NCBI GenBank assembly: GCA_046598715.1
Contig: JBKJIE010000130.1
Coordinates: 1-63,202 of the forward strand
DNA: 63,202 nt
Direction of reading: 5' to 3'
Origin: Acidimicrobiales bacterium
GTDB taxonomy: Bacteria > Actinomycetota > Acidimicrobiia > Acidimicrobiales > VFJN01
Shown here: in pieces, positions 910 to 39,500 of the stretch
Position numbering within the stretch: the stretch's first letter is position 1
How the letters are laid out: the number at the start of each line of letters is the position of its first letter
Notes under the pieces: generated by a model
What the model was told of the DNA's origin: nothing
Database searches by the model: none
What the model saw: the letters and a program-made list of their open reading frames with translations, nothing else
Made by a program: the position numbers and the translations under genes

Positions 910-1138
910 GTCGCGAGTCTGGCACCGCCACGCGCTCAAGGCTTCGTGTCGTCCGTGTCGATGACGTGACTTCAGGGTGCGTTATTGTTACAGTTCGATG
1001 TCAACCCCACCGCCAGTGGGGGCGCGAGCGGTGTCGTGGTTCATGTGGGGCTTGTTGTTTGTGTGGCTCCAGGGGACCATGTGGTCACTGATCGTTGTTG
1101 TCCGTCAACCCACGGTGAGGTTTGTGCGCGTTCCGTCG

Positions 1139-2311
1139 ATGTCCCCCAGAACACTGATCAAGACGCTGGGCGCCGTGCTGGCTGCCTCGCTCGTCCTGTC
1201 ACCGGTGGTGAGCCTGGCGGAGAGGGTCGGCAGCAACCCGTCTGCCGAGCGGGCGGCGGTGCGGGCCGAGATGGCCAAGCAAGCCTCGAAGGTCAACGCC
1301 CTCAAGGCCACCGACGCCGAGGTGTCCGCTGCGCTCGATGCGCTCCAGGCCAACGTGCGCGGCCAAGAGGCGCTCGTCGCCGAGGCCAACCGCGCCGCCG
1401 CCGAGGCGCAATCCGCCCTCGAGCAGGCGCTGGCCGCCGTGGACGCCAAGAACCGCGAGATCGATGTGCTGCACAAGCAGATCCGCGACTTCGCCGTGCA
1501 GGCCTTCGTGCACCCGCCGTCTGACGACGCCATGGCGGCGCTCGACACCGCCGATCCGGGTGAGGCCGCGCAGAAGCGGGCCCTCCTCGACATCCAGAAC
1601 ACCAACGACGCCGACCTCCTCGATCGGCTCAGCGCCGCCCAGGAGGATCTCCAGGTGCAGCGCAAGCTGGCCGAGGAGGCGTCCAAGCGGGCCGAGGAGA
1701 AGCGGGCGGCCGCGGCCGGTCGCCTCGGGGAGCTCACCGCCGCCCGCAACCAGCAGGCGTCCTACGCCAACCAGGTGCAGGCGCGCCTCGAGCAGGCGCT
1801 CGGTGAGGCAGCCGCCCTCGAGCAGCACGACGCTCAGCTCTCCGCCAAGATCGCCGCCCAGCAGGCCGAGCTGGCCCGCAAGGCCGCGGCCGCGTCGTCT
1901 CGTCGCTCCGGGGGCGGTGGCAGCAGCGCCACGTTCAACGGTTCCTTGTCAACAGTGTCCTGCCCCACGGGCGGGTCGATCACCGTGGCCAGCTCGATCG
2001 CCGACAACACCCAGTCGCTGCTGAACGCCGCTCCGGACAGCCTCAACCTGTGCGGTTGGGGCTGGCGGAGCTCGCAGCGCCAGCAGGAGCTGTGGGACGA
2101 GCACGGCTGCGACAGTGGCTGCAGCGTGCCCACGGCACGGCCGGGTTCGTCGATGCATGAGCAAGGCCTGGCGATCGACTTCACCTCGGGTGGCCAGACG
2201 ATCCAGTCACGCAGCAGCGCCGCCTTCCAGTGGCTCGACGCCAACGCCGGCGGCTACGGGTTCCACAACCTCCCGTCCGAGCCGTGGCACTGGAGTACTA
2301 ATGGCAACTAG
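1139..2311 (+). CDS. Secreted coiled-coil protein with C-terminal M15B (VanY-like) D-Ala-D-Ala peptidase domain
   Basis: Signal-peptide-like N-terminus, long Ala/Gln-rich coiled coil, GWRS..Q, SMHEQGLAID (SxHxxGxAxD) and EPWHW motifs; ATG 1139 chosen within ORF 977..2311. Confidence 0.85.
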   Translation: MSPRTLIKTLGAVLAASLVLSPVVSLAERVGSNPSAERAAVRAEMAKQASKVNALKATDAEVSAALDALQANVRGQEALVAEANRAAAEAQSALEQALAAVDAKNREIDVLHKQIRDFAVQAFVHPPSDDAMAALDTADPGEAAQKRALLDIQNTNDADLLDRLSAAQEDLQVQRKLAEEASKRAEEKRAAAAGRLGELTAARNQQASYANQVQARLEQALGEAAALEQHDAQLSAKIAAQQAELARKAAAASSRRSGGGGSSATFNGSLSTVSCPTGGSITVASSIADNTQSLLNAAPDSLNLCGWGWRSSQRQQELWDEHGCDSGCSVPTARPGSSMHEQGLAIDFTSGGQTIQSRSSAAFQWLDANAGGYGFHNLPSEPWHWSTNGN

Positions 2312-2320
2312 CCGGACGCA

Positions 2321-2991
2321 TCACGAGATGTCGACCAGCGTTGGCGTCGCCAGCAGCCGCTCGAGGTCGGCCGGCGGCAGAGGCCTGGCGAAGAGGTAGC
2401 CCTGGGCATGAGGGCAGCCCAGCTCTCGCAGCGTCTCCAGCTGCTGCGGGGTCTCCACCCCTTCCGCCACCGCCGTGAGGTTGAGGGCGCTGGCCAGCCG
2501 CATGACCGCCTTGACGATGGCGGTGTCCTCCGGGTCCTCACCGAGCCCACTGACGAAGGACCGGTCGATCTTGAGCTCGTCGACCGGGAAGCGCTTCAGG
2601 TAGTTGAGCGACGAGTTGCCGGTACCAAAGTCGTCGACGCTCAGCCTGACCCCGAGGGACTTGAGGGCGAGGAGGATCGTGACGGCTGCCGGGGCATCGT
2701 CCATCACGACCCCCTCCGTCATCTCGAGCGTCAGGCTCTGGGGCGCCAGCCCGGTCTTCTCCAGCACGCCTCTCGCGTCCCGGCCCGGTCGTCCGGGTGC
2801 ACGAGGTCGAGGAAGTGACTGCCCGGCAGGGCGCTGGCCTCATAGCCGAGCGCGGCCAGGAAGGACTCGTTGGCTTCGATCATCTCCCCATCCGCTCCCA
2901 CCGTGCAGAGCAGCGCGGGGGAGAGGTCGAAGAACTCCCGATGGGCGGAGGATCGTGCCGGGGCGGACGCGGTGCTCAAGTCCTGGTGCAT
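2321..2991 (-). pseudogene. Deleted/frameshifted PAS-(GGDEF)-EAL signalling gene: PAS N-terminus (2991-~2768) joined out of frame to the C-terminal half of an EAL domain (2767-2321)
   Basis: PAS features (FFDLSPALLC..G..IEANESF..LGY, VHPDDR) run straight into LTLEMTE..DDFGTG..KIDRSF..AEGVE..QGYLF in another frame; the EAL signature half and any GGDEF are absent. Confidence 0.7.
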
Positions 2992-3056
2992 CCGTTGTCC
3001 AGTCTGGTGGGCTGACTAGACAACCTTCGTCCACCAAACGGTACCGCTTCCCACCC

Positions 3057-4094
3057 TCAGCCAGGAGCGCACGGTGGGGGAGCTACTCGGCCTGCTCGTC
3101 CCCGGCGGACCGTGACCACGTCGTGGACGTCACGTGCTGCTCGCTCGAGCAGGGCCCTGGCTGCCGGGTGGTCGTGCGCTGCGGCCTTGGCGAGCTCGGC
3201 GACCCCTTGCTCGAAGTGGGTTGGTTCGAGGCCTCGGGGGGCGCCGACGGACCAGGACCACGTCAGGACCTCGGTCAGAACGGTGGGGTCATGGGCGGCG
3301 AGGGCGGCTTCGGCGGCGCGCAGGACCTGGCCGAGTGCGTCGTGCACCTGCGGCTGGCTCGCTGCTGCCGGTGCGGAGCGAAGCAGGTCCGCTCGTACCG
3401 CGGCAAAGGCGATCGCAGCCCGCTGCGACCCCGCCGCGCCGAGGCTCGGTCGTCGCTCGCTCCAGCCGTCGAGCACCTCCACCGCGCCGGCCGCCGTAGC
3501 CGCCCACCCGTCCGCGCCGATGGCTACGGCGCGCGCCGGGTCCGCGCCGAGGCCGAGCCCACCGGCGAGCACCGGGAGCCCGTGGCGGTGGACCGCCTCG
3601 ATGCTTCGCTGGGCGCCCGGGAGCAGGGTCGCCATCGAGCAGCTGATCGCCACGGCCACCGGCTCCACGGCGGCGATGAACCGTGCCAAGTCTCGGGCTG
3701 GGGTCGAACCACCCAGGAAGGTGACTCCCCAGCCGAGGTGACGCAGCTCCTCGGCCAGCATGCGGGCGGGGAGCGCATGCCATTCTCCCTCGGCGCACGT
3801 GACGACGACGCTGCCCCGGGACGGTGCGGTGTGGTTGGCCAGCTCGAGCTCGGCCAACGCGGCATCGACGATCGCGGTCGCGGCGTGCTCCTGGGCGACA
3901 TTCCAGTGGTCGTCCTGCCACAGCGTTCCCACGCGTCGCTGCGCAGGCGCCAGCAACGTAGTGATCAGGTCGCTCCCGGTGACGCCGTCTGCAGACCGCC
4001 GGCGCACGAGGGCCAGCGCCGCCTCTCGGTCACGGGCCTCCAGATGGTGCATCAGCTCCGCGAGGGAGGGGTCGGGGTGTGTCGTCGCGACCAT
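3057..4094 (-). CDS. Stand-alone cobalamin (B12)-binding protein, CarH/AerR-type sensor domain with C-terminal helical extension
   Basis: W-x9-EH motif (WQDDHWNVAQEH), EWHALP (ExHxxG variant), LGGSTP, AISCS, LAGG Rossmann motifs. Confidence 0.85.
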   Translation of the reverse strand: MVATTHPDPSLAELMHHLEARDREAALALVRRRSADGVTGSDLITTLLAPAQRRVGTLWQDDHWNVAQEHAATAIVDAALAELELANHTAPSRGSVVVTCAEGEWHALPARMLAEELRHLGWGVTFLGGSTPARDLARFIAAVEPVAVAISCSMATLLPGAQRSIEAVHRHGLPVLAGGLGLGADPARAVAIGADGWAATAAGAVEVLDGWSERRPSLGAAGSQRAAIAFAAVRADLLRSAPAAASQPQVHDALGQVLRAAEAALAAHDPTVLTEVLTWSWSVGAPRGLEPTHFEQGVAELAKAAAHDHPAARALLERAARDVHDVVTVRRGRAGRVAPPPCAPG

Positions 4095-4803
4095 GATCGA
4101 GTGTGGGAGATCCTGCCACGGCCGCGCGGCGGAGGCCGGCGACGATGAGGCGGGCGTCCTCGATGGCGCTCGGGAGCACCGCCTCCAGACGGAGGCGGGC
4201 CACGCTGGCCGATGGAGCCCGAACCACCGAGGGCTCCGTCTCGCCGAGTCCGACGTCGATGGGGAGCACCTCGTCGGACTCGAGGGTCGCCGGCACCAGC
4301 TCGCCCCCGAGGTCGATCACCAGGTCAGCCAGCGCCGCCGCGACCGCGGCAGGGGAGGCCGCGCGCAGCATCGCCCGAGTCGCCCGATGCGCGGCCGCGA
4401 GGGCCTCGGTGTCGGCGGCCTCCATGAGGTCGTCGAGGGGGGTGAGCAGGGCCGTCGTCGCTGACCCACCATCGCTGCGGCGGGGCTGCTCGCGACGGTC
4501 AGGGAGTGGCCGCTGTGGCGCGCGGGCGTCCGCCCCGTCGGGCACCGGGGCGTCGGCGTAGCCGGTCGGGGCCGAGGCGCGTGCCGCCACGTGGGCGGCC
4601 GCCTGCGAGACCGCCCAGCCCTCGTCGACGTGGGCCGCCACCTCGAGGAGGGCGGCGACGTCGGCTCGGCCGTACAGACGCTGGCCGCCCTCGCTGCGCG
4701 TCGGCGCCAGTAGCCCGTACCGGCGCTGCCACGCCCGGATCGTCCCCGGGCTCAGCCCCGTCCGTCGTGCCACCTCACCGATCCGCATCGTGGGCTCGTC
4801 CAT
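4030..4803 (-). CDS. MerR-family (CarH/CarA-type HTH) regulator with non-B12 C-terminal domain
   Basis: MRIGEVARRTGLSPGTIRAWQRRYGLLAPTRSEGGQRLY; RAWQRRY matches the CarH RxWERRY recognition helix; AAGGGAA upstream of ATG 4803. Confidence 0.85.
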   Translation of the reverse strand: MDEPTMRIGEVARRTGLSPGTIRAWQRRYGLLAPTRSEGGQRLYGRADVAALLEVAAHVDEGWAVSQAAAHVAARASAPTGYADAPVPDGADARAPQRPLPDRREQPRRSDGGSATTALLTPLDDLMEAADTEALAAAHRATRAMLRAASPAAVAAALADLVIDLGGELVPATLESDEVLPIDVGLGETEPSVVRAPSASVARLRLEAVLPSAIEDARLIVAGLRRAAVAGSPTLDHGRDDTPRPLPRGADAPSGGP

Positions 4804-4821
4804 CGTTCGCCGTTCCCTTGA

Positions 4822-4865
4822 GTTGCTAGACAAGACCTGTACAATTGTGTGACAGTACCTGTACA
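4822..4865. promoter_or_regulatory. CarH-type operator: four direct repeats at 11-bp period, overlapping a predicted promoter for the ECF sigma gene
   Basis: TAGACA 4827, TGTACA 4838, GTGACA 4849, TGTACA 4860; GTGACA-N17-TACCGT(4872-4877) forms a -35/-10 pair toward 4909. Confidence 0.75.
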
Positions 4866-4908
4866 CCCACCTACCGTAGCACCATCCCCATTCCGCCGGA
4901 GCTCGTCG

Positions 4909-5430
4909 ATGACGCACCACGTGGAGCACCCGCTCCAGCAGATCTACCGAGACCACGGGCACGCGGTCCACGAGGTGGCACGGCACATCTGTGGCCCGTC
5001 TCTCGCCGCCGACGTCACGCAGGATGTGTTCAGCCAGCTCTGGCGGAATCCGCACATGTTCGATCCGCGGCGGGGATCGATGCGGGCCTTCCTCGTGACC
5101 GTGGCCCGCCGCCGGGCGATCGACGTCATGCGCGCCGAAGGTGCGCGGCGAGCACGCGAGGGCCGCGAGGAGCCGGTGCTAGGGAGTTCGGCGGACGTGG
5201 ATCAGCGACTCCTCGCCGAAGAGCGCTCGGGCGCGGTGGCCAAGGCGCTCCGGGCCCTTCCCGCCGTGGAGCGCGACGCGATCGTGGCTGCCTACTTCGG
5301 CGGGTGCACCTACCGGGAGGCGGCGAGGATCCTCGGGGCGCCGGAGGGCACCATCAAGTCACGCATCCGCTCCGGCCTGCGGCGCCTCCAGGCACCATTG
5401 CGCGAGGTGGCCGCGTGCGCGCCCGGCTGA
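4909..5430 (+). CDS. ECF RNA polymerase sigma factor (SigK-like)
   Basis: AADVTQDVFSQLW, FDPRRGS, ARRRAID, YFGGCTYREAARILGAPEGTIKSRIRSGL (regions 2 and 4.2); start could be 4849 or 4909. Confidence 0.88.
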   Translation: MTHHVEHPLQQIYRDHGHAVHEVARHICGPSLAADVTQDVFSQLWRNPHMFDPRRGSMRAFLVTVARRRAIDVMRAEGARRAREGREEPVLGSSADVDQRLLAEERSGAVAKALRALPAVERDAIVAAYFGGCTYREAARILGAPEGTIKSRIRSGLRRLQAPLREVAACAPG

Positions 5431-36830: not shown

Positions 36831-39500
36831 ATGGGACTGGTCCCGGGACAGCGACGAGGAGCAGGCGTCACGGTGCGGACGCGGCTCCTCGCCGCCGTCC
36901 TGCTGCCTCTGCTGCTCGTGACGACCTTCGTGGGGCTCATCGTGGCCGACCGGCAGGGCACGGTCCGGGCCACCGCCGCCCTGCGCGAACGAACGGAGGT
37001 GCTGGCCGATCTGGCCATGCTGCGGACGCGGGTGTTCGAGGAGCGACGGCAGTTCGAGACGGTCACCCGGTCTGCTGCCTTTGGTGTCGATCCGGCCACC
37101 GTGAGCAACCTGATCGGGATGGAGGTGGAGGCTGATCCGACGGCGGCCCGCACCGCCACTGATGCGGTCATCGCTCGCATCGACCTGGGTCATCGACCCT
37201 TCGCCGCAGGCACGCTCGCCGCCCTGCGAGCTGACATCGACACCTCCGCCGTCAACACCGACGAGGCGAGCGCCCGGTTCTCGGCGCTCGAGTCGAGCGT
37301 CGTCGCATCCCTCGACGGCGCCCTCGACGACATCGCCCGTCGCGCCGTGGGCATTGGCGACGTCACGCTCGAGCAGGCCGTTCGGACGATGAACGACTCG
37401 GTGCAGGTGGCCGGCCTGCGGGGTCGGCAGATCCAGGCGCTGGTGGGCCTCTGGTTTGCCGGCGGCGGTTCGCACGTGCCAGCCCTCGCCGAGTTGGCCA
37501 GGGCCACGGAGCTGTACGAGCGGACGGCCCACAAGCTCGACGCCACACCGGTGAGGTCCGTCGCCGACGCGTGGTCGAGCGCCGATGCCGCTGGGGCGGC
37601 GTTCAGCGGTGCGATCGCAGACGAGCTCGCCGGGACCCCGAGTGCTGGCCTCGACGTGGCTGACCTCACGTCGATCGGGCGAGTGCTGGGCGATGGGCTG
37701 CGTCACTACGAGGCGATCGCGTCGCTCCCAGAGCTCGCCTCGGTGCCCGTCTCTGCCTCGGCGGCCGCCCGCGGTGCCCGCGCCACGGCGGACGCCGAGC
37801 GGGCGGTGGCCGCCGCCGCGACGTCGATACTCATCGCCGTTGGTGCCGCGCAGTGGTTCGGACGCTCAATCACACGACCGCTGCGCAACCTAACCGAGCA
37901 GGTCAGAGCTGTCAGCGACGGTGATCTGGCCCTCGCCCCGTTGCCCCTGCGCGGACCGCCCGAGCTGCGCGTCGCCTCTGCTGCGTTCAACGAGGTGGCC
38001 GCCAACCTCATGCTGATCGAGCAGAAGGCCCTGGCCCTCTCGGCGTGCGACTTCACGAGCCCGGCCGTGACGACCGATCTGCCCGGTCGCCTTGGAGAGG
38101 CGCTGAGCACCTCCCTGCAGGTCCTGTCGAGGTCGATCATCGAGCGACACCAGCTGCAGTCCCGACTGCTCCACCAGGCCACCCACGATTCGCTGACCGG
38201 TCTGGCCAACCGCCGAGCGGTGATCGAGACCCTCGGCGCTGCAGTGGAGCGCTCGCGGCGATCGGGGAGCCTGCTCGCCGTCACGTTCATCGACCTCGAC
38301 GACTTCAAGGCCACCAACGACTCCAGCGGGCACGCCATCGGTGACCTGCTCCTCCAGGCCGTGGCGGACCGGATGCGCGGCGCGGCACGGCGAGGTGACG
38401 TCGTTGCCCGCCTCGGCGGTGATGAGTTCGTCATCGTGGCCGAGCACGTGGGTGGCCCGGATGAGGTGATGGCACTGGTCAGGCGCGTGCTCGACGCCGT
38501 CGCCGCTCCTATCGAGATCGATGGCCGGGACTACACGATCAGGGCTTCCGCTGGCGTGGCGCTGAACCATGACCTGACCGATGACCCCCTCTCTCTTCTC
38601 GCCAAGGCGGATCTGGCCGTCTACCGCTCGAAGCGGCGCTCGCCATCGGCCATCGAGCTCTACGACGAGCAGCTCCAGCGGGTGGTCAGGAACCACGCAG
38701 AGGTGGAGGCCGCGCTCGCGGCAACTCTGGCCGTCGGTGGTGATGAGCTCCAGCTCCACTACCAGCCGATCGTGGACGCCAGCACGGGAGCGGTCGTATC
38801 GCTCGAGGCGCTCGTTCGGTGGGATCGGCCCGACGAAGGGCTGATGCAGCCCGATCAGTTCATCCCGATCGCCGAGGTGTCTGACCTCATCGTGCGGCTC
38901 GACTGCTGGGTGCTGCAGGCTGCCACGCGGCAGCTGGCGGCATGGTCAGATCACCCGCTCCTGAGCCGGACCACGATGGCGGTGAACATCTCCGGCCGGC
39001 ACATCACCGATGTCGGCTTCGTCGACAACGTCGTCGCGGCGCTCGCTGCGACCGGCATCGCTCCGCACCGCCTGGTGCTCGAGGTGACGGAGACCGCGCT
39101 CGTGAGAGATCTCTCGCGCGCCGCGGCCCAGATCGAGGCCGTCCGCGCCCTCGGTGTTGCGGTAGCCGCAGACGACTTCGGAACGGGACACACCGGCCTG
39201 GCCCACGTCCGGACGCTGACGGTGGACGAGATCAAGATCGATCGCAGCTTCACGAGCGAGCTGCCGGTGGTGACCGAGCTCGTGCAGATCGTGATCGACC
39301 TGGCCCGTCACCTCGGCGTGCGAACGGTGGCCGAGGGCGTGGAGACACAGCAGCAGGCCGACGCGCTTCGCGCACTGGGCTGCAACCTCCTACAGGGCTA
39401 TCTCTTCAGCCCGGCGCTGCCACCCGGGGAGCTCCTGCTCTGGATGCACGAGCACCACCGTGCCCTGACGGTCTGGTCGCCGGCGTCGGTTGTCTCGTAG
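36831..39500 (+). CDS. Membrane sensor HAMP-GGDEF-EAL diguanylate cyclase/phosphodiesterase
   Basis: Two TMs, HAMP (ITRPLRNL), HDSLTGLANR, RRGD..RLGGDEF, EALVRW, DDFGTG, AEGVE, QGYLF. Confidence 0.92.
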   Translation: MGLVPGQRRGAGVTVRTRLLAAVLLPLLLVTTFVGLIVADRQGTVRATAALRERTEVLADLAMLRTRVFEERRQFETVTRSAAFGVDPATVSNLIGMEVEADPTAARTATDAVIARIDLGHRPFAAGTLAALRADIDTSAVNTDEASARFSALESSVVASLDGALDDIARRAVGIGDVTLEQAVRTMNDSVQVAGLRGRQIQALVGLWFAGGGSHVPALAELARATELYERTAHKLDATPVRSVADAWSSADAAGAAFSGAIADELAGTPSAGLDVADLTSIGRVLGDGLRHYEAIASLPELASVPVSASAAARGARATADAERAVAAAATSILIAVGAAQWFGRSITRPLRNLTEQVRAVSDGDLALAPLPLRGPPELRVASAAFNEVAANLMLIEQKALALSACDFTSPAVTTDLPGRLGEALSTSLQVLSRSIIERHQLQSRLLHQATHDSLTGLANRRAVIETLGAAVERSRRSGSLLAVTFIDLDDFKATNDSSGHAIGDLLLQAVADRMRGAARRGDVVARLGGDEFVIVAEHVGGPDEVMALVRRVLDAVAAPIEIDGRDYTIRASAGVALNHDLTDDPLSLLAKADLAVYRSKRRSPSAIELYDEQLQRVVRNHAEVEAALAATLAVGGDELQLHYQPIVDASTGAVVSLEALVRWDRPDEGLMQPDQFIPIAEVSDLIVRLDCWVLQAATRQLAAWSDHPLLSRTTMAVNISGRHITDVGFVDNVVAALAATGIAPHRLVLEVTETALVRDLSRAAAQIEAVRALGVAVAADDFGTGHTGLAHVRTLTVDEIKIDRSFTSELPVVTELVQIVIDLARHLGVRTVAEGVETQQQADALRALGCNLLQGYLFSPALPPGELLLWMHEHHRALTVWSPASVVS

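What the first reader, a model, noticed from the sequence alone, without database searches (positions are those of the whole stretch)
2321..5430. Candidate split CarH/LitR B12 photosensory module: separate MerR HTH and B12 sensor, divergent ECF sigma, c-di-GMP output
Seen: a MerR protein with the CarH-like RAWQRRY helix but, after a Pro/Ala linker, a ~120-aa C-terminal domain with no B12 motifs. Directly downstream and overlapping by 65 nt is a stand-alone protein with Wx9EH and ExH motifs, followed by a PAS/EAL gene. An ECF sigma lies divergently across a CarH-type operator. Established: in CarH/LitR the HTH and AdoB12 domain are one polypeptide, Wx9EH marks AdoB12 photoreceptors, and Streptomyces litR/litS is a MerR repressor with a divergent ECF sigma. 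Inference: sensing and DNA binding are split here. The MerR C-terminal domain may dock the B12 protein, making a two-protein light (or B12) switch that controls a sigma factor and c-di-GMP turnover rather than adjacent crt genes, which are absent from the window.
Basis: partly seen in the sequence, partly recalled or inferred. Interest (0 to 1): 0.85.

Follow-up and report, generated by a model that had tools for sequence, protein, structure and literature searches.

The report
Split CarH-like switch using a photocobilin
A DNA-binding protein resembling the light repressor CarH has lost its own vitamin-B12 sensor and instead appears to dock a separately encoded B12/bilin photoreceptor through a previously undescribed small domain, together controlling a neighbouring sigma factor gene.

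Summary
The observation largely holds. On the minus strand lie a MerR-family gene (4030-4803), an overlapping stand-alone B12 protein (3057-4094) and, divergently, an ECF sigma gene (4909-5430). Between them are four tandem 11-bp repeats of the CarH operator type.

- The B12 protein is a stand-alone photocobilin (B12 domains plus a C-terminal globin). It matches the solved SasPcob structure 8J2W at E 3e-48, and Trp/Glu-His/His are invariant in 72 of 72 relatives.
- The "PAS/EAL gene" is a dead remnant. Half a PAS and the last half of an EAL domain sit in different frames, and a related strain carries a further 556-nt deletion there.

The MerR C-terminal domain (about 110 aa) matches no Pfam family and no PDB fold. 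It recurs fused to GGDEF, EAL, kinase, anti-sigma and, in 5 of 152 held proteins, photocobilin modules.
- In a 401-genome sample, 8 of 9 genomes with this domain have a photocobilin, against 13 of 392 without it.
- In that sample, 9 of 10 domain copies lie within 800 nt of a photocobilin.
- All 9 MerR-type loci carry the ECF sigma.
- A complex model scored 0.80 against a best control of 0.10.

Best reading: a two-protein, CarH-like light switch driving an ECF sigma. It is a new variant of a known kind; binding and light response are untested.

The parts
4030..4803 (-). MerR-family regulator, 257 aa. CarH-like winged-helix DNA-binding domain (residues 1-77, nt 4573-4803), disordered Pro/Ala linker (residues 78-117, nt 4453-4572), novel C-terminal domain 'CTD' (residues 118-231, nt 4111-4452), and an unconserved tail that overlaps the next gene.
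   Evidence: Pfam MerR_1 at residues 6-68. AF2 model has mean pLDDT 84.5 with helix-helix-three strands-helix in the CTD. The top 8 Foldseek PDB hits are T. thermophilus CarH DNA-binding domains at 36-40% identity and rmsd 0.9-1.7. The tail is absent from relatives.
3057..4094 (-). Stand-alone photocobilin, 345 aa. Four-helix bundle (B12-binding_2, residues 13-84), Rossmann B12-binding domain (95-205) and C-terminal photoglobin-type domain (about 215-325).
   Evidence: Pfam. phmmer against PDB gives 8J2W/8J2X 'Cobalamin-binding protein' at E 3e-48 over residues 12-321. W59, E69, H70 and H106 are invariant in 72 of 72 relatives and W279 is kept in 71 of 72.
4822..4865 (-). Operator-like array of four tandem 11-bp units, read on the minus strand: DR1 4855-4865, dr2 4844-4854, DR3 4833-4843, DR4 4822-4832. 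Three fit TGTnnA, which is TnnACA on the + strand; dr2 is a pseudorepeat.
   Evidence: The CarH consensus 5'-nnnnTnnACAn-3', with three or four tandem repeats, comes from passages of PMC9304148.
4818..4845 (+). Sigma-70-like promoter match facing the ECF sigma gene (TTGAGT, 16-nt spacer, TACAAT). It lies almost wholly inside the repeat array.
   Evidence: 1 site found against a mean of 0.0 in 50 shuffles. This is a consensus match only.
4909..5430 (+). ECF sigma factor, 173 aa from ATG 4909 (the ORF is also open from GTG 4849). No anti-sigma gene lies beside it.
   Evidence: Pfam Sigma70_r2 and r4_2. The best NCBIfam hit is the SigK subfamily at 118 bits, below its cut-off of 226. Relatives align from residues 1-9 of the ATG form.
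2321..2991 (-). Remnant of a PAS-(GGDEF?)-EAL gene. The N-terminal half of a PAS domain (2731-2991) joins out of frame, near 2768-2778, to the C-terminal 55% of an EAL domain (2321-2767).
   Evidence: A contig of run X2, from another study, joins 2461 to 3018 and so lacks 556 nt of this region.

Best explanation
This is a three-gene photosensory module: a 'split CarH' built around a photocobilin.

The MerR-family protein keeps a CarH-type DNA-binding domain and flexible linker. In place of B12-binding domains it carries a roughly 110-aa domain whose job is to dock a separately encoded stand-alone photocobilin, an AdoCbl-binding four-helix bundle plus Rossmann fold plus bilin-type globin. The DNA-binding domains recognise four tandem 11-bp repeats that cover the sigma-70-like promoter of the divergent ECF sigma gene and sit 19 nt upstream of the merR start.

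The most likely working is as follows.
- In the dark, the AdoCbl-loaded photocobilin, a head-to-tail dimer in its solved homologue, holds several MerR chains in an oligomer able to occupy the repeats. This represses both promoters.
- Green light, or red light if a bilin is bound, cleaves the Co-C bond and moves the Glu-His helix. The assembly changes and the ECF sigma gene is released. The sigma factor then transcribes a so far unknown regulon.

Shown by computation: identity of the parts, conservation of the photoreceptor residues, the operator array, the conserved three-gene linkage, the domain fusions and a supportive complex model.

Inferred: that the two proteins bind, that light (not just B12 supply) is the signal, the sign of regulation (dark repression), and the sigma cascade.

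The adjacent PAS/EAL piece is a decayed gene and not part of the module.
For: 1. Sensor identity.
- E 3e-48 to SasPcob structures 8J2W/8J2X over residues 12-321. SasPcob binds AdoCbl and biliverdin and changes quaternary state in light (PMC10979010, sections 7-9 read).
- The equivalents of SasPcob Trp61, Glu71-His72 and His108 are W59, E69-H70 and H106. All are invariant in 72 of 72 aligned relatives.

2. DNA-binding domain.
- The best eight PDB fold matches are TtCarH.
- The NCBIfam CarH profile is tiled by the two proteins: MerR covers positions 8-84 and the photocobilin covers 78-260 of 274.

3. Operator.
- Tandem 11-bp TGTnnA units lie between merR and the ECF gene in 7 of 7 loci of the closer group (window, L020-L025).
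- This matches the published CarH repeat nnnnTnnACAn, with 3-4 in tandem overlapping -35/-10.
- 0 of 100 shuffles of the window gave the pattern.
- A weight-matrix scan of the 2.94-Mb assembly gave 4 hits above threshold. Two overlapping ones are here and one lies at the start of the only other CarH-like MerR gene.

4. Linkage.
- All 6 genome-contig loci found with the CTD profile encode MerR-CTD, photocobilin and ECF sigma. So do 2 further loci in another family (L067, L068).
- With the window that makes 9 of 9, in three gene orders. The photocobilin follows merR in 4, follows the ECF gene in 3, and all three genes are co-directional in 2.

5. CTD-photocobilin coupling.
- Of the 152 proteins then held (P0001-P0152: the 150 listed CTD-profile hits plus two), 5 fuse the CTD to a full photocobilin module.
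- In a 401-genome phylum sample, 9 genomes have the CTD and 8 of these have a full-length photocobilin, against 13 of the 392 without it.
- 9 of the 10 CTD matches lie within 800 nt of the photocobilin gene, whatever the output domain: MerR, GGDEF, histidine kinase or degenerate GGDEF.

6. Complex model.
- ipSAE was 0.80 (runs 0.80, 0.79, 0.81) against a best control of 0.10. That mark was reached by 58 of 80 solved complexes and 2 of 110 mismatched pairs in the tool's calibration. Runs agree in at least 82% of contacts and partner pLDDT is at least 78.
- The modelled contacts put the CTD C-terminal helix (218-229) against photocobilin helix 1 (23-31). This fits the 10-15-residue linker of the natural fusions P0065 and P0101.
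- 5 of the 9 near-invariant CTD residues (D183, G187, P191, E207, P211) are in the interface.

7. Precedents.
- LitR with divergent ECF LitS in Streptomyces (PMC11519972, passages).
- Class II LitR regulated in trans by a short LOV protein (PMC9758184, passages).
- Stand-alone photocobilins acting on a diguanylate cyclase in trans (PMC10979010, section 8).
Against: - No experiment exists on any of these loci. Every step from 'binds' onward is inference.
- The modelled interface includes cofactor-contacting residues (H70, W105-H106, G128-S130) and was made without cobalamin. Part of the docking may therefore be into space that the cofactor or the dark-state partner protomer occupies. If the site is the homodimer interface, the CTD would bind the light-state monomer and the sign of regulation could be reversed.
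- My own alignments were used in the complex model, so the calibration counts hold only roughly.
- The biliverdin-ligating Asp270 of SasPcob is Ala253 here (Asp in 51 of 72 relatives). No heme oxygenase (PF01126) was found in this 77%-complete assembly. Bilin use is therefore doubtful in this organism.
- In 3 of 9 loci the photocobilin is co-transcribed with the ECF sigma rather than with merR. This also fits a direct sensor-sigma link.
- The two most distant MerR-type loci (L067, L068) show only a degenerate, 12-bp-spaced version of the repeats.
- Genomes sharing the features are relatives, so the co-occurrence counts overstate independence. Only 10 first-look candidates per genome were scored.
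- One CTD-positive genome (G307, unpublished, match on a 3.2-kb contig) showed no photocobilin.
Confidence: 0.6

Rival explanations
1. The photocobilin acts mainly on the ECF sigma factor itself, as a soluble light-controlled anti-sigma or anti-sigma partner. The MerR protein is an ordinary autoregulator whose CTD senses something else.
For: - In 3 of 9 loci (L021, L022, L025) the photocobilin gene directly follows the ECF gene, where anti-sigma genes usually sit.
- No anti-sigma gene lies next to the ECF gene in the window, in L020 or in L068.
- One CTD homologue (P0097) carries an RskA_N/zf-HC2 anti-sigma N-domain. The ECF here is closest to the SigK subfamily, whose anti-sigma is RskA.
Against: - CTD-photocobilin fusions and tight CTD-photocobilin gene pairs exist in loci with no ECF gene at all.
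- The complex model supports CTD-photocobilin contact.
- P0097 itself argues that the CTD, not the photocobilin, is the piece attached to the anti-sigma module.
Confidence: 0.1
2. The module senses cobalamin availability or cofactor state rather than light. It would be a B12-responsive transcriptional switch in a soil or sediment organism.
For: - B12-binding domains also serve as non-photic B12 sensors, such as the AerR/CrtJ type (recalled, not from a call).
- The assembly encodes B12-dependent enzymes (three further B12-binding matches) and a PduO-type adenosyltransferase.
- Runs that hold the DNA are labelled soil and sediment metagenomes.
Against: - The Wx9EH and E/DxH motifs that mark light-responsive B12 domains are invariant.
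- The closest solved homologue is photoactive.
- The genome also carries a photolyase, carotenoid genes and a second CarH-like regulator next to idi/polyprenyl synthase genes. This indicates a light-exposed lifestyle.
Confidence: 0.12
3. The two genes are neighbours without a physical partnership. MerR-CTD works alone (the CTD is a dimerisation or small-ligand domain), and the photocobilin signals to other, unlinked partners.
For: - The CTD has two long helices that could mediate self-association.
- 13 of 392 genomes have photocobilins without any CTD, so photocobilins certainly use other partners too.
- The literature suggests STAS/SpoIIE partners for SasPcob.
Against: - 9 of 10 CTD copies sit next to a photocobilin, across four different output types.
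- 5 natural fusions exist.
- The complex model gives 0.80 against 0.10.
Confidence: 0.1
4. The split is an artefact: a single MerR-B12 fusion gene broken by an assembly or sequencing error at the 65-nt overlap.
For: The window comes from a 77%-complete metagenome-assembled genome. The MerR tail overlapping the B12 gene is unconserved.
Against: - The same two-gene split occurs in all 9 loci. In 3 of them the photocobilin is on the opposite strand from merR.
- In G025 the genes overlap by only 4 nt.
- A 1542-nt contig from a different study covers 3564-5066 with 12 substitutions and no indel in 4030-4094.
Confidence: 0.03

Closest known systems
CarH / class I LitR (Thermus thermophilus CarH, PDB 5C8D/5C8E)
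   Same: - MerR-type winged-helix DNA-binding domain: best fold match, 36-40% identity.
- Flexible linker.
- Operator of tandem 11-bp TnnACA repeats overlapping a promoter.
- AdoCbl photoreceptor motifs Wx9EH and E/DxH in the sensor.
   Different: - DNA-binding and B12 domains are on two polypeptides.
- The DNA-binding chain carries a novel docking domain instead.
- The sensor has an extra globin domain.
- Both proteins score far below the NCBIfam CarH cut-off (51 and 64.6 bits against 400).
- The adjacent target is an ECF sigma gene, not crt genes.
Stand-alone photocobilin SasPcob (Saccharothrix syringae; PDB 8J2W/8J2X; PMC10979010)
   Same: Same three-domain architecture and length. Homologous over residues 12-321 (E 3e-48). 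The AdoCbl-binding Trp, Glu-His and His, and Trp296 of the bilin pocket, are conserved.
   Different: - Asp270, the key biliverdin ligand, is Ala here.
- For SasPcob the paper says the function of stand-alone photocobilins 'is less clear' and suggests STAS/SpoIIE neighbours. Here the conserved neighbours are a MerR-CTD protein and an ECF sigma.
AbDPcob, diguanylate cyclase-photocobilin fusion (Acidimicrobiaceae; PDB 8J2Y; PMC10979010)
   Same: The photocobilin controls an attached or added output domain through protein contacts. Relatives found here (P0115; L069, L070, L073) have CTD-GGDEF followed by or fused to a photocobilin.
   Different: The output here is a DNA-binding domain on a separate chain. 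Whether AbDPcob itself has the CTD at its N-terminus was not tested, because its full sequence was not held.
Streptomyces LitR-LitS (PMC11519972)
   Same: A MerR-type light regulator sits divergent from an ECF sigma gene whose product drives the light regulon. The bidirectional promoter region is bound by the regulator.
   Different: LitR is a single chain with its own B12 domains. LitS orthology of this ECF was not tested; its best NCBIfam hit is the SigK subfamily.
Class II LitR PmlR2 with short LOV protein PmSB-LOV (Pseudomonas mendocina; PMC9758184)
   Same: A LitR/CarH-family regulator without a working chromophore site is controlled in trans by an adjacently encoded stand-alone photoreceptor.
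   Different: - The chromophore is FMN (LOV) there, not B12/bilin.
- LOV binds the N-terminal HTH domain of PmlR2. Here a dedicated C-terminal domain is the predicted docking site.

Membership tests
CarH / class I LitR | MerR-type N-terminal DNA-binding domain of the CarH kind | tested here: met
   The top 8 PDB fold hits are TtCarH. The NCBIfam CarH profile is matched at positions 8-84.
CarH / class I LitR | [quoted passage not shown] | tested here: not met
   Pfam finds only HTH families in the 257-aa MerR protein. The B12 domains are in the next gene.
CarH / class I LitR | Wx9EH and E/DxH cobalamin photoreceptor motifs | tested here: met
   Present on the separate sensor protein: W59, E69-H70 and E104-x-H106. 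W, E, H and H are invariant in 72 of 72 relatives.
CarH / class I LitR | Operator of three or four tandem 11-bp repeats nnnnTnnACAn overlapping the promoter | tested here: met
   Four units lie at 4822-4865, three of them fitting TnnACA. Similar arrays occur in 7 of 7 closer loci. Consensus from PMC9304148. Binding itself was not tested.
CarH / class I LitR | Score above the curated NCBIfam equivalog cut-off (400 bits) | tested here: not met
   51 bits for MerR and 64.6 bits for the sensor.
CarH / class I LitR | AdoCbl-dependent oligomerisation and light-triggered release from DNA | not testable with these tools
   Needs biochemistry.
Photocobilin | B12-binding_2 + B12-binding + C-terminal globin (photoglobin) domain, homologous to solved photocobilins | tested here: met
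   8J2W/8J2X at E 3e-48 over residues 12-321; 8J2Y at E 1e-38.
Photocobilin | AdoCbl ligands: Trp61, Glu71-His72, His108 (SasPcob numbering) | tested here: met
   W59, E69-H70 and H106, from the alignment and the counts. Residue roles from PMC10979010, section 7.
Photocobilin | Biliverdin pocket: Asp270 and Trp296 | tested here: inconclusive
   The Trp is kept (W279). The Asp is Ala253, with an Asp one position earlier beside an alignment gap. Asp is present in 51 of 72 relatives. AbPcob, with His at this site, binds biliverdin weakly.
Photocobilin | Binds AdoCbl and biliverdin and is photoactive | not testable with these tools
   Needs spectroscopy.
LitR-LitS type cascade | ECF sigma gene linked to the light regulator and sharing its control region | tested here: met
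   An ECF gene is present in 9 of 9 MerR-CTD loci. The repeats overlap the promoter-like site of the ECF gene.
LitR-LitS type cascade | The ECF sigma is an orthologue of LitS and drives light-induced genes | not tested
   No LitS sequence was held. The best NCBIfam match is the SigK subfamily, below its cut-off.
EAL c-di-GMP phosphodiesterase | Complete EAL domain including the N-terminal half with the EAL signature | tested here: not met
   Only profile positions 110-236 of 236 are present. 14 of the 15 multidomain relatives queried matched, all through the C-terminal part of the EAL domain only; P0140 gave no hit. The fragment is out of frame with the PAS piece.
DICT domain (PF10069) | Match to the Pfam DICT profile | tested here: not met
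   0 of 41 CTD family members matched DICT even at E<=1. The paralogous MerR on contig C26 does match (2.3e-16).

The most novel reading that the evidence does not exclude
The roughly 100-aa C-terminal domain is a previously undescribed, dedicated 'photocobilin receiver'. It would be a portable adaptor that wires stand-alone B12/bilin photoreceptors to MerR DNA-binding domains, diguanylate cyclases, histidine kinases and anti-sigma modules.

It would read the light state by binding the Glu-His helix face of the four-helix bundle, which the dark-state homodimer otherwise uses. Light signalling would then work by partner swapping. This would give the orphan stand-alone photocobilins their natural effectors and a new two-part optogenetic switch.
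Probability: 0.35. Interest if true: 0.8.

Novelty: new variant of a known kind. Interest (0 to 1): 0.68.

Why it matters
Photocobilins were described in 2024 as photoreceptors that combine B12 and biliverdin. The authors state that the role of the stand-alone forms is unclear (PMC10979010, section 8). This locus and its relatives point to concrete natural partners: proteins carrying one small, unnamed domain, here joined to a CarH-type DNA-binding domain.

If the pairing is real, three things follow.
- The CarH design (sensor-driven oligomerisation on tandem repeats) can be split into two chains.
- A defined docking domain and interface become available to test.
- A green-to-red light-controlled transcription switch would exist whose sensor and DNA-binding halves can be exchanged, which is useful for optogenetics.

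It also extends the LitR-LitS logic (light regulator, then ECF sigma, then regulon) to Acidimicrobiia-like Actinomycetota known only from metagenomes.

Tried and rejected
- A word-indexed search with the CTD found only 2 proteins. The full HMMER scan of representatives was needed and found 496 at E<=1e-3.
- Pfam at E<=1 on 41 CTD members and NCBIfam on the MerR protein gave no family for the CTD.
- Foldseek of the CTD-only model (pLDDT 93) against PDB gave nothing below E 0.7. The best hit was the KdpD GAF domain (TM 0.35, probability 0.30), so I do not call the CTD GAF-like.
- The ESM Atlas look-up scored 0.80 (DUF5682 clusters), within the range of shuffled sequences, and was discarded.
- DICT relationship: considered because the paralogous MerR carries DICT. 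Rejected for lack of any match.
- Sequencing runs: no RNA holder is listed, so nothing can be said on expression. X3 and X5 contigs do not bridge the PAS/EAL junction, so only X1, the possible source, confirms that exact junction.
- I did not try to define the ECF regulon or its promoter motif. No anti-sigma gene was seen next to the ECF gene in the window, L020 or L068.
- I could not read Sumi et al. 2018 on LitR classes (not held). I therefore cannot say whether this MerR or the DICT paralogue equals 'class V' LitR.
- Figures and supplements of PMC8717448 and PMC10979010 (neighbourhood figures, Supplementary Figs 24-31) were not visible. They may already show MerR or ECF neighbours or this domain. 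Text searches of PMC8717448 for 'ECF', 'DUF', 'unknown domain', 'novel domain' and 'uncharacterized' found none, and 'new domain' occurred once, in the methods. PMC10979010 has 0 occurrences of 'MerR'.
- Literature searches for 'photocobilin' (6 papers hold the term, 5 listed) and 'photoglobin' (8 hold it, 7 listed) turned up no title or abstract on a MerR-photocobilin pair.

Full report
**What is there**

The window is high-GC DNA (about 70%) from a 2.94-Mb, 77%-complete metagenome-assembled genome. The nearest related loci carry record titles of Acidimicrobiales/Actinomycetota MAGs. In 2321-5430 the minus strand carries, in order of transcription, the following genes.
- A MerR-family gene at 4030-4803 (257 aa from ATG 4803).
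- A B12-domain gene at 3057-4094 (345 aa).
- Two short ORFs in different frames: 2731-2991 (half a PAS domain) and 2321-2767 (the second half of an EAL domain).

The plus strand carries an ECF sigma gene ending at 5430. The MerR and B12 ORFs overlap by 65 nt with the ATG at 4094. The overlap is 23 nt with the ATG at 4052 that the public collection's gene call uses (P0153, 331 aa). In the homologous pair of genome G025 the overlap is 4 nt, and the MerR protein ends about 25 residues earlier. The long overlap here is therefore a local, unconserved tail.

**The sensor is a photocobilin**

A phmmer search of PDB sequences gave 8J2W/8J2X ('Cobalamin-binding protein') at E 3e-48 over residues 12-321. 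It gave 8J2Y at E 1e-38, well ahead of CarH (5C8A, E 3e-10). These entries are the stand-alone photocobilin SasPcob and the photoreceptor part of the cyclase fusion AbDPcob. Both bind AdoCbl in a CarH-like four-helix-bundle/Rossmann module and biliverdin in a C-terminal five-helix globin ('photoglobin') domain (PMC10979010, sections 7-9 read; PMC8717448, passages).

Using the printed alignment and the paper's numbering, the key residues map as follows.

| SasPcob residue | Window residue | Conservation in 72 relatives |
|---|---|---|
| Trp61 | W59 | 72 of 72 |
| Glu71-His72 | E69-H70 | 72 of 72 |
| His108 (lower axial ligand) | H106 | 72 of 72 |
| Trp296 (bilin pocket) | W279 | 71 of 72 |
| Asp270 (biliverdin ligand) | Ala253 | Asp in 51 of 72 |

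AbPcob, with His at the Asp270 position, binds biliverdin weakly. No heme oxygenase (PF01126) was found in this incomplete assembly, while a PduO-type adenosyltransferase is present. B12-based photoreception is thus well supported by homology. Bilin use in this organism is open.

**The MerR protein**

The AF2 model (78-row alignment, mean pLDDT 84.5) has three parts.
- A confident winged-helix domain (residues 1-77).
- A disordered Pro/Ala-rich linker (about 78-117).
- A confident C-terminal domain (CTD): helices 118-146 and 151-164, three short strands, and helix 201-231.

The usual MerR coiled-coil dimerisation helix is missing, as in CarH. The eight best Foldseek matches in PDB are T. thermophilus CarH chains, at 36-40% identity over 67-75 columns and rmsd 0.9-1.7 Å.

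In NCBIfam the MerR protein matches CarH profile positions 8-84. The photocobilin matches positions 78-260 of 274. The two chains together tile the CarH model, but each scores far below its 400-bit cut-off.

The CTD alone (pLDDT 93.2) has no Pfam match, in 0 real hits among 41 members at E<=1. It has no significant PDB fold match either; the best is E 0.7.

**The operator**

Between the merR start (4803) and the ECF start (4909) lie four tandem 11-bp units at 4822-4865. Read on the minus strand they are TGTACAGGTAC, TGTCACACAAT, TGTACAGGTCT and TGTCTAGCAAC. Three fit TGTnnA, the complement of the TnnACA core.

CarH from Thermus and Bacillus binds tandem 11-bp repeats 5'-nnnnTnnACAn-3', three or four in a row, overlapping -35 or -10 elements (PMC9304148, passages).

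- The three-repeat pattern with at most one mismatch occurs only here in the window (two overlapping matches) and in 0 of 100 shuffles.
- Comparable arrays (TGTAGAGGTTT TGTCAAGGTAT TGTCTATGTTA and the like) lie at the same place in all six related loci L020-L025.
- The two most distant loci (L067, L068) show only a degenerate version with 12-bp spacing.
- The only sigma-70-like promoter match in 4700-5000 faces the ECF gene (TTGAGT-16-TACAAT, 4818-4845) and lies almost wholly inside the array.
- A weight matrix built from these repeats gave four hits above threshold in the whole assembly. The matrix includes the window's own repeats, so the home hits are circular. Two overlapping hits are here, one is at C26:54658 and one is an AT-rich stretch on C111.

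The C26 site sits at the start of the only other CarH-like MerR gene of the genome. That protein carries a DICT domain and is divergent from NUDIX/idi and polyprenyl synthase genes at a contig end.

**Is the three-gene set conserved?**

A profile of the CTD found six loci in the species-representative genome collection. All six encode MerR-CTD, a photocobilin and an ECF sigma. Two more loci in another family (L067, L068) do too. With the window this gives 9 of 9 loci, in three arrangements.

| Arrangement | Loci |
|---|---|
| ECF divergent from merR-pcob | window, L020, L023, L024 |
| merR divergent from ecf-pcob | L021, L022, L025 |
| merR-pcob-ecf co-directional | L067, L068 |

None of L020-L025 has a PAS or EAL match (0 of 6). 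No anti-sigma gene was seen beside the ECF gene in the window, L020 or L068.

**What the CTD is for**

The profile search of 1.84 billion representatives found 496 proteins at E<=1e-3 and 321 at E<=1e-10. I scanned 115 of the best 150 against Pfam, choosing the longer ones. The co-occurring domains were as follows.

| Domain | Proteins of 115 |
|---|---|
| GGDEF | 44 |
| MerR HTH | 34 |
| EAL | 15 |
| PAS | 10 |
| GAF | 6 |
| HATPase_c | 5 |
| B12-binding + B12-binding_2 | 5 |

The five B12 cases are fusions of the CTD to a whole photocobilin module.
- P0065 and P0101: CTD, then a 10-15-residue linker, then photocobilin.
- P0115: CTD-GGDEF-photocobilin.
- P0076: PAS-GGDEF-EAL-CTD-photocobilin.
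- P0084.

One small homologue (P0097) joins an RskA_N/zf-HC2 anti-sigma N-domain to the CTD.

In an evenly drawn sample of 401 genomes of the phylum, 9 have the CTD at E<=1e-8. In the same sample, 21 have a full-length photocobilin, meaning the profile is covered to position 325 or beyond. Eight of the 9 CTD genomes have a photocobilin, against 13 of 392 without the CTD. Nine of the 10 CTD matches lie within 800 nt of the photocobilin match. The CTD protein's other domain varies: MerR, GGDEF, a PAS-histidine kinase or a degenerate GGDEF-like domain. The exception is G307, which is unpublished and whose match sits on a 3.2-kb contig. These genomes are relatives and only 10 first-look candidates per genome were scored, so the figures indicate association, not a statistical proof.

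**Complex model**

With my alignments (72 and 78 rows), the photocobilin plus MerR residues 112-232 scored ipSAE 0.80 (runs 0.80, 0.79, 0.81). The best of three controls scored 0.10. In the tool's calibration that mark was reached by 58 of 80 solved complexes and 2 of 110 mismatched pairs. Runs agree in at least 82% of contacts and partner pLDDT is at least 78. The model supports binding; it does not show it.

The contacts are as follows.
- On the photocobilin: residues 23, 27 and 31 (helix 1), 66-85 (the helix carrying E69-H70), 105-107, 126-132 and 252.
- On the CTD: residues 171-229, including five of its nine near-invariant residues.

The CTD's C-terminal helix lies against photocobilin helix 1, which fits the short linkers of the natural fusions.

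There is a caveat. The Glu-His helix is part of the dark-state head-to-tail dimer interface and moves about 2.4 Å on illumination (passage, section 7). The model also had no cofactor. The CTD may therefore bind a surface that is only free, or only shaped correctly, in one light state, and I cannot tell which.

**The PAS/EAL piece**

Pfam places ORF 2731-2991 on PAS positions 5-62 of 113. It places ORF 2321-2767 on EAL positions 110-236 of 236. Of 15 multidomain relatives queried, 14 align, and only through the C-terminal part of the EAL domain, all in the EAL frame; P0140 gave no hit. The two frames meet near 2768-2778. The PAS frame stops at 2731.

Contigs tell the same story.
- The run that may be the source carries this junction unchanged, which is not independent.
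- A contig from another study (X2) joins 2461 directly to 3018, a further 556-nt loss.
- X2 also keeps 3564-5066 (merR, the overlap and most of the photocobilin gene) with 12 substitutions and no indel in the overlap.

The region is thus decaying while the regulator pair is maintained.

**Mechanism proposed**

By analogy with CarH (dark AdoCbl tetramer on three or four repeats), the photocobilin supplies in trans the light-sensitive oligomerisation or allostery that the MerR chain lacks. The CTD is the coupling piece. The target is the shared control region of merR and the ECF sigma gene. The sigma factor then carries the signal to other genes, as LitS does for LitR.

Trans-acting photoreceptors on LitR-family regulators have an experimental precedent with LOV. 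Photocobilins have been shown to act on a cyclase domain in trans.

The sign of regulation, the stoichiometry, the role of bilin and the regulon are inferred or unknown. The main rivals are listed with their tests in the Rival explanations section: a direct sensor-sigma link, B12 rather than light as the signal, and no partnership.

**Novelty**

Each part belongs to a known kind: the CarH-type DNA-binding domain and operator, the photocobilin, and the LitR-LitS-like layout. What appears new is the split design and the docking domain. That domain has no Pfam or NCBIfam family and no PDB fold match. It also seems to be the common handle of photocobilin effectors.

I found no description of it in the texts I could search. 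Figures and supplements were not visible. I rate the finding a new variant of a known kind, with interest 0.68.

Noticed in passing
G000 contig C26, L026:7846-8673 (- strand), outside the window: A second CarH-like MerR regulator with a C-terminal DICT domain (PF10069, E 2.3e-16). A DR-type site lies at its start. It is divergent from a NUDIX/idi plus polyprenyl synthase ORF at the contig end. Phytoene synthase lies 2.2 kb from the start of contig C74. It may be a B12-independent carotenoid regulator of the LitR family.
   Followed up: partly
window 2461-3018: A contig of run X2, from a different study, joins 2461 to 3018. A related strain therefore lacks 556 nt covering the PAS piece and most of the EAL piece.
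   Followed up: partly
P0097 (186 aa, from the representative search): An anti-sigma N-domain (RskA_N/zf-HC2, residues 5-38) is fused to the CTD (73-170). This hints that in some organisms the photocobilin signal reaches an ECF sigma through an anti-sigma factor rather than through a MerR protein.
   Followed up: partly
L071 (G092:C1), L069/L070 (G229), L073 (G165), L072/L074 (G134, G047): The CTD is attached to a PAS-histidine kinase, to GGDEF domains, or to a degenerate GGDEF-like domain. In each case it sits next to a photocobilin gene.
   Followed up: partly
L068:2004-2837 (G175): The MerR HTH and the CTD lie in separate ORFs, and the search reports an internal TAG. This may be a frameshift or an assembly error in that MAG.
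   Followed up: no
window 977-2311 (+): A 444-aa protein with a long Ala/Glu-rich coiled-coil region and a C-terminal VanY-type D-Ala-D-Ala carboxypeptidase domain.
   Followed up: no
window 38178-38639 (+): A GGDEF domain within a 924-aa open frame. It is one of 14 GGDEF matches in the assembly. None of the other GGDEF proteins of this genome has the CTD (1 CTD match in G000).
   Followed up: no
L026:5217-6194 (+), contig C26: A DACNK sensor domain plus DisA-type diadenylate cyclase domain protein (c-di-AMP synthesis).
   Followed up: no
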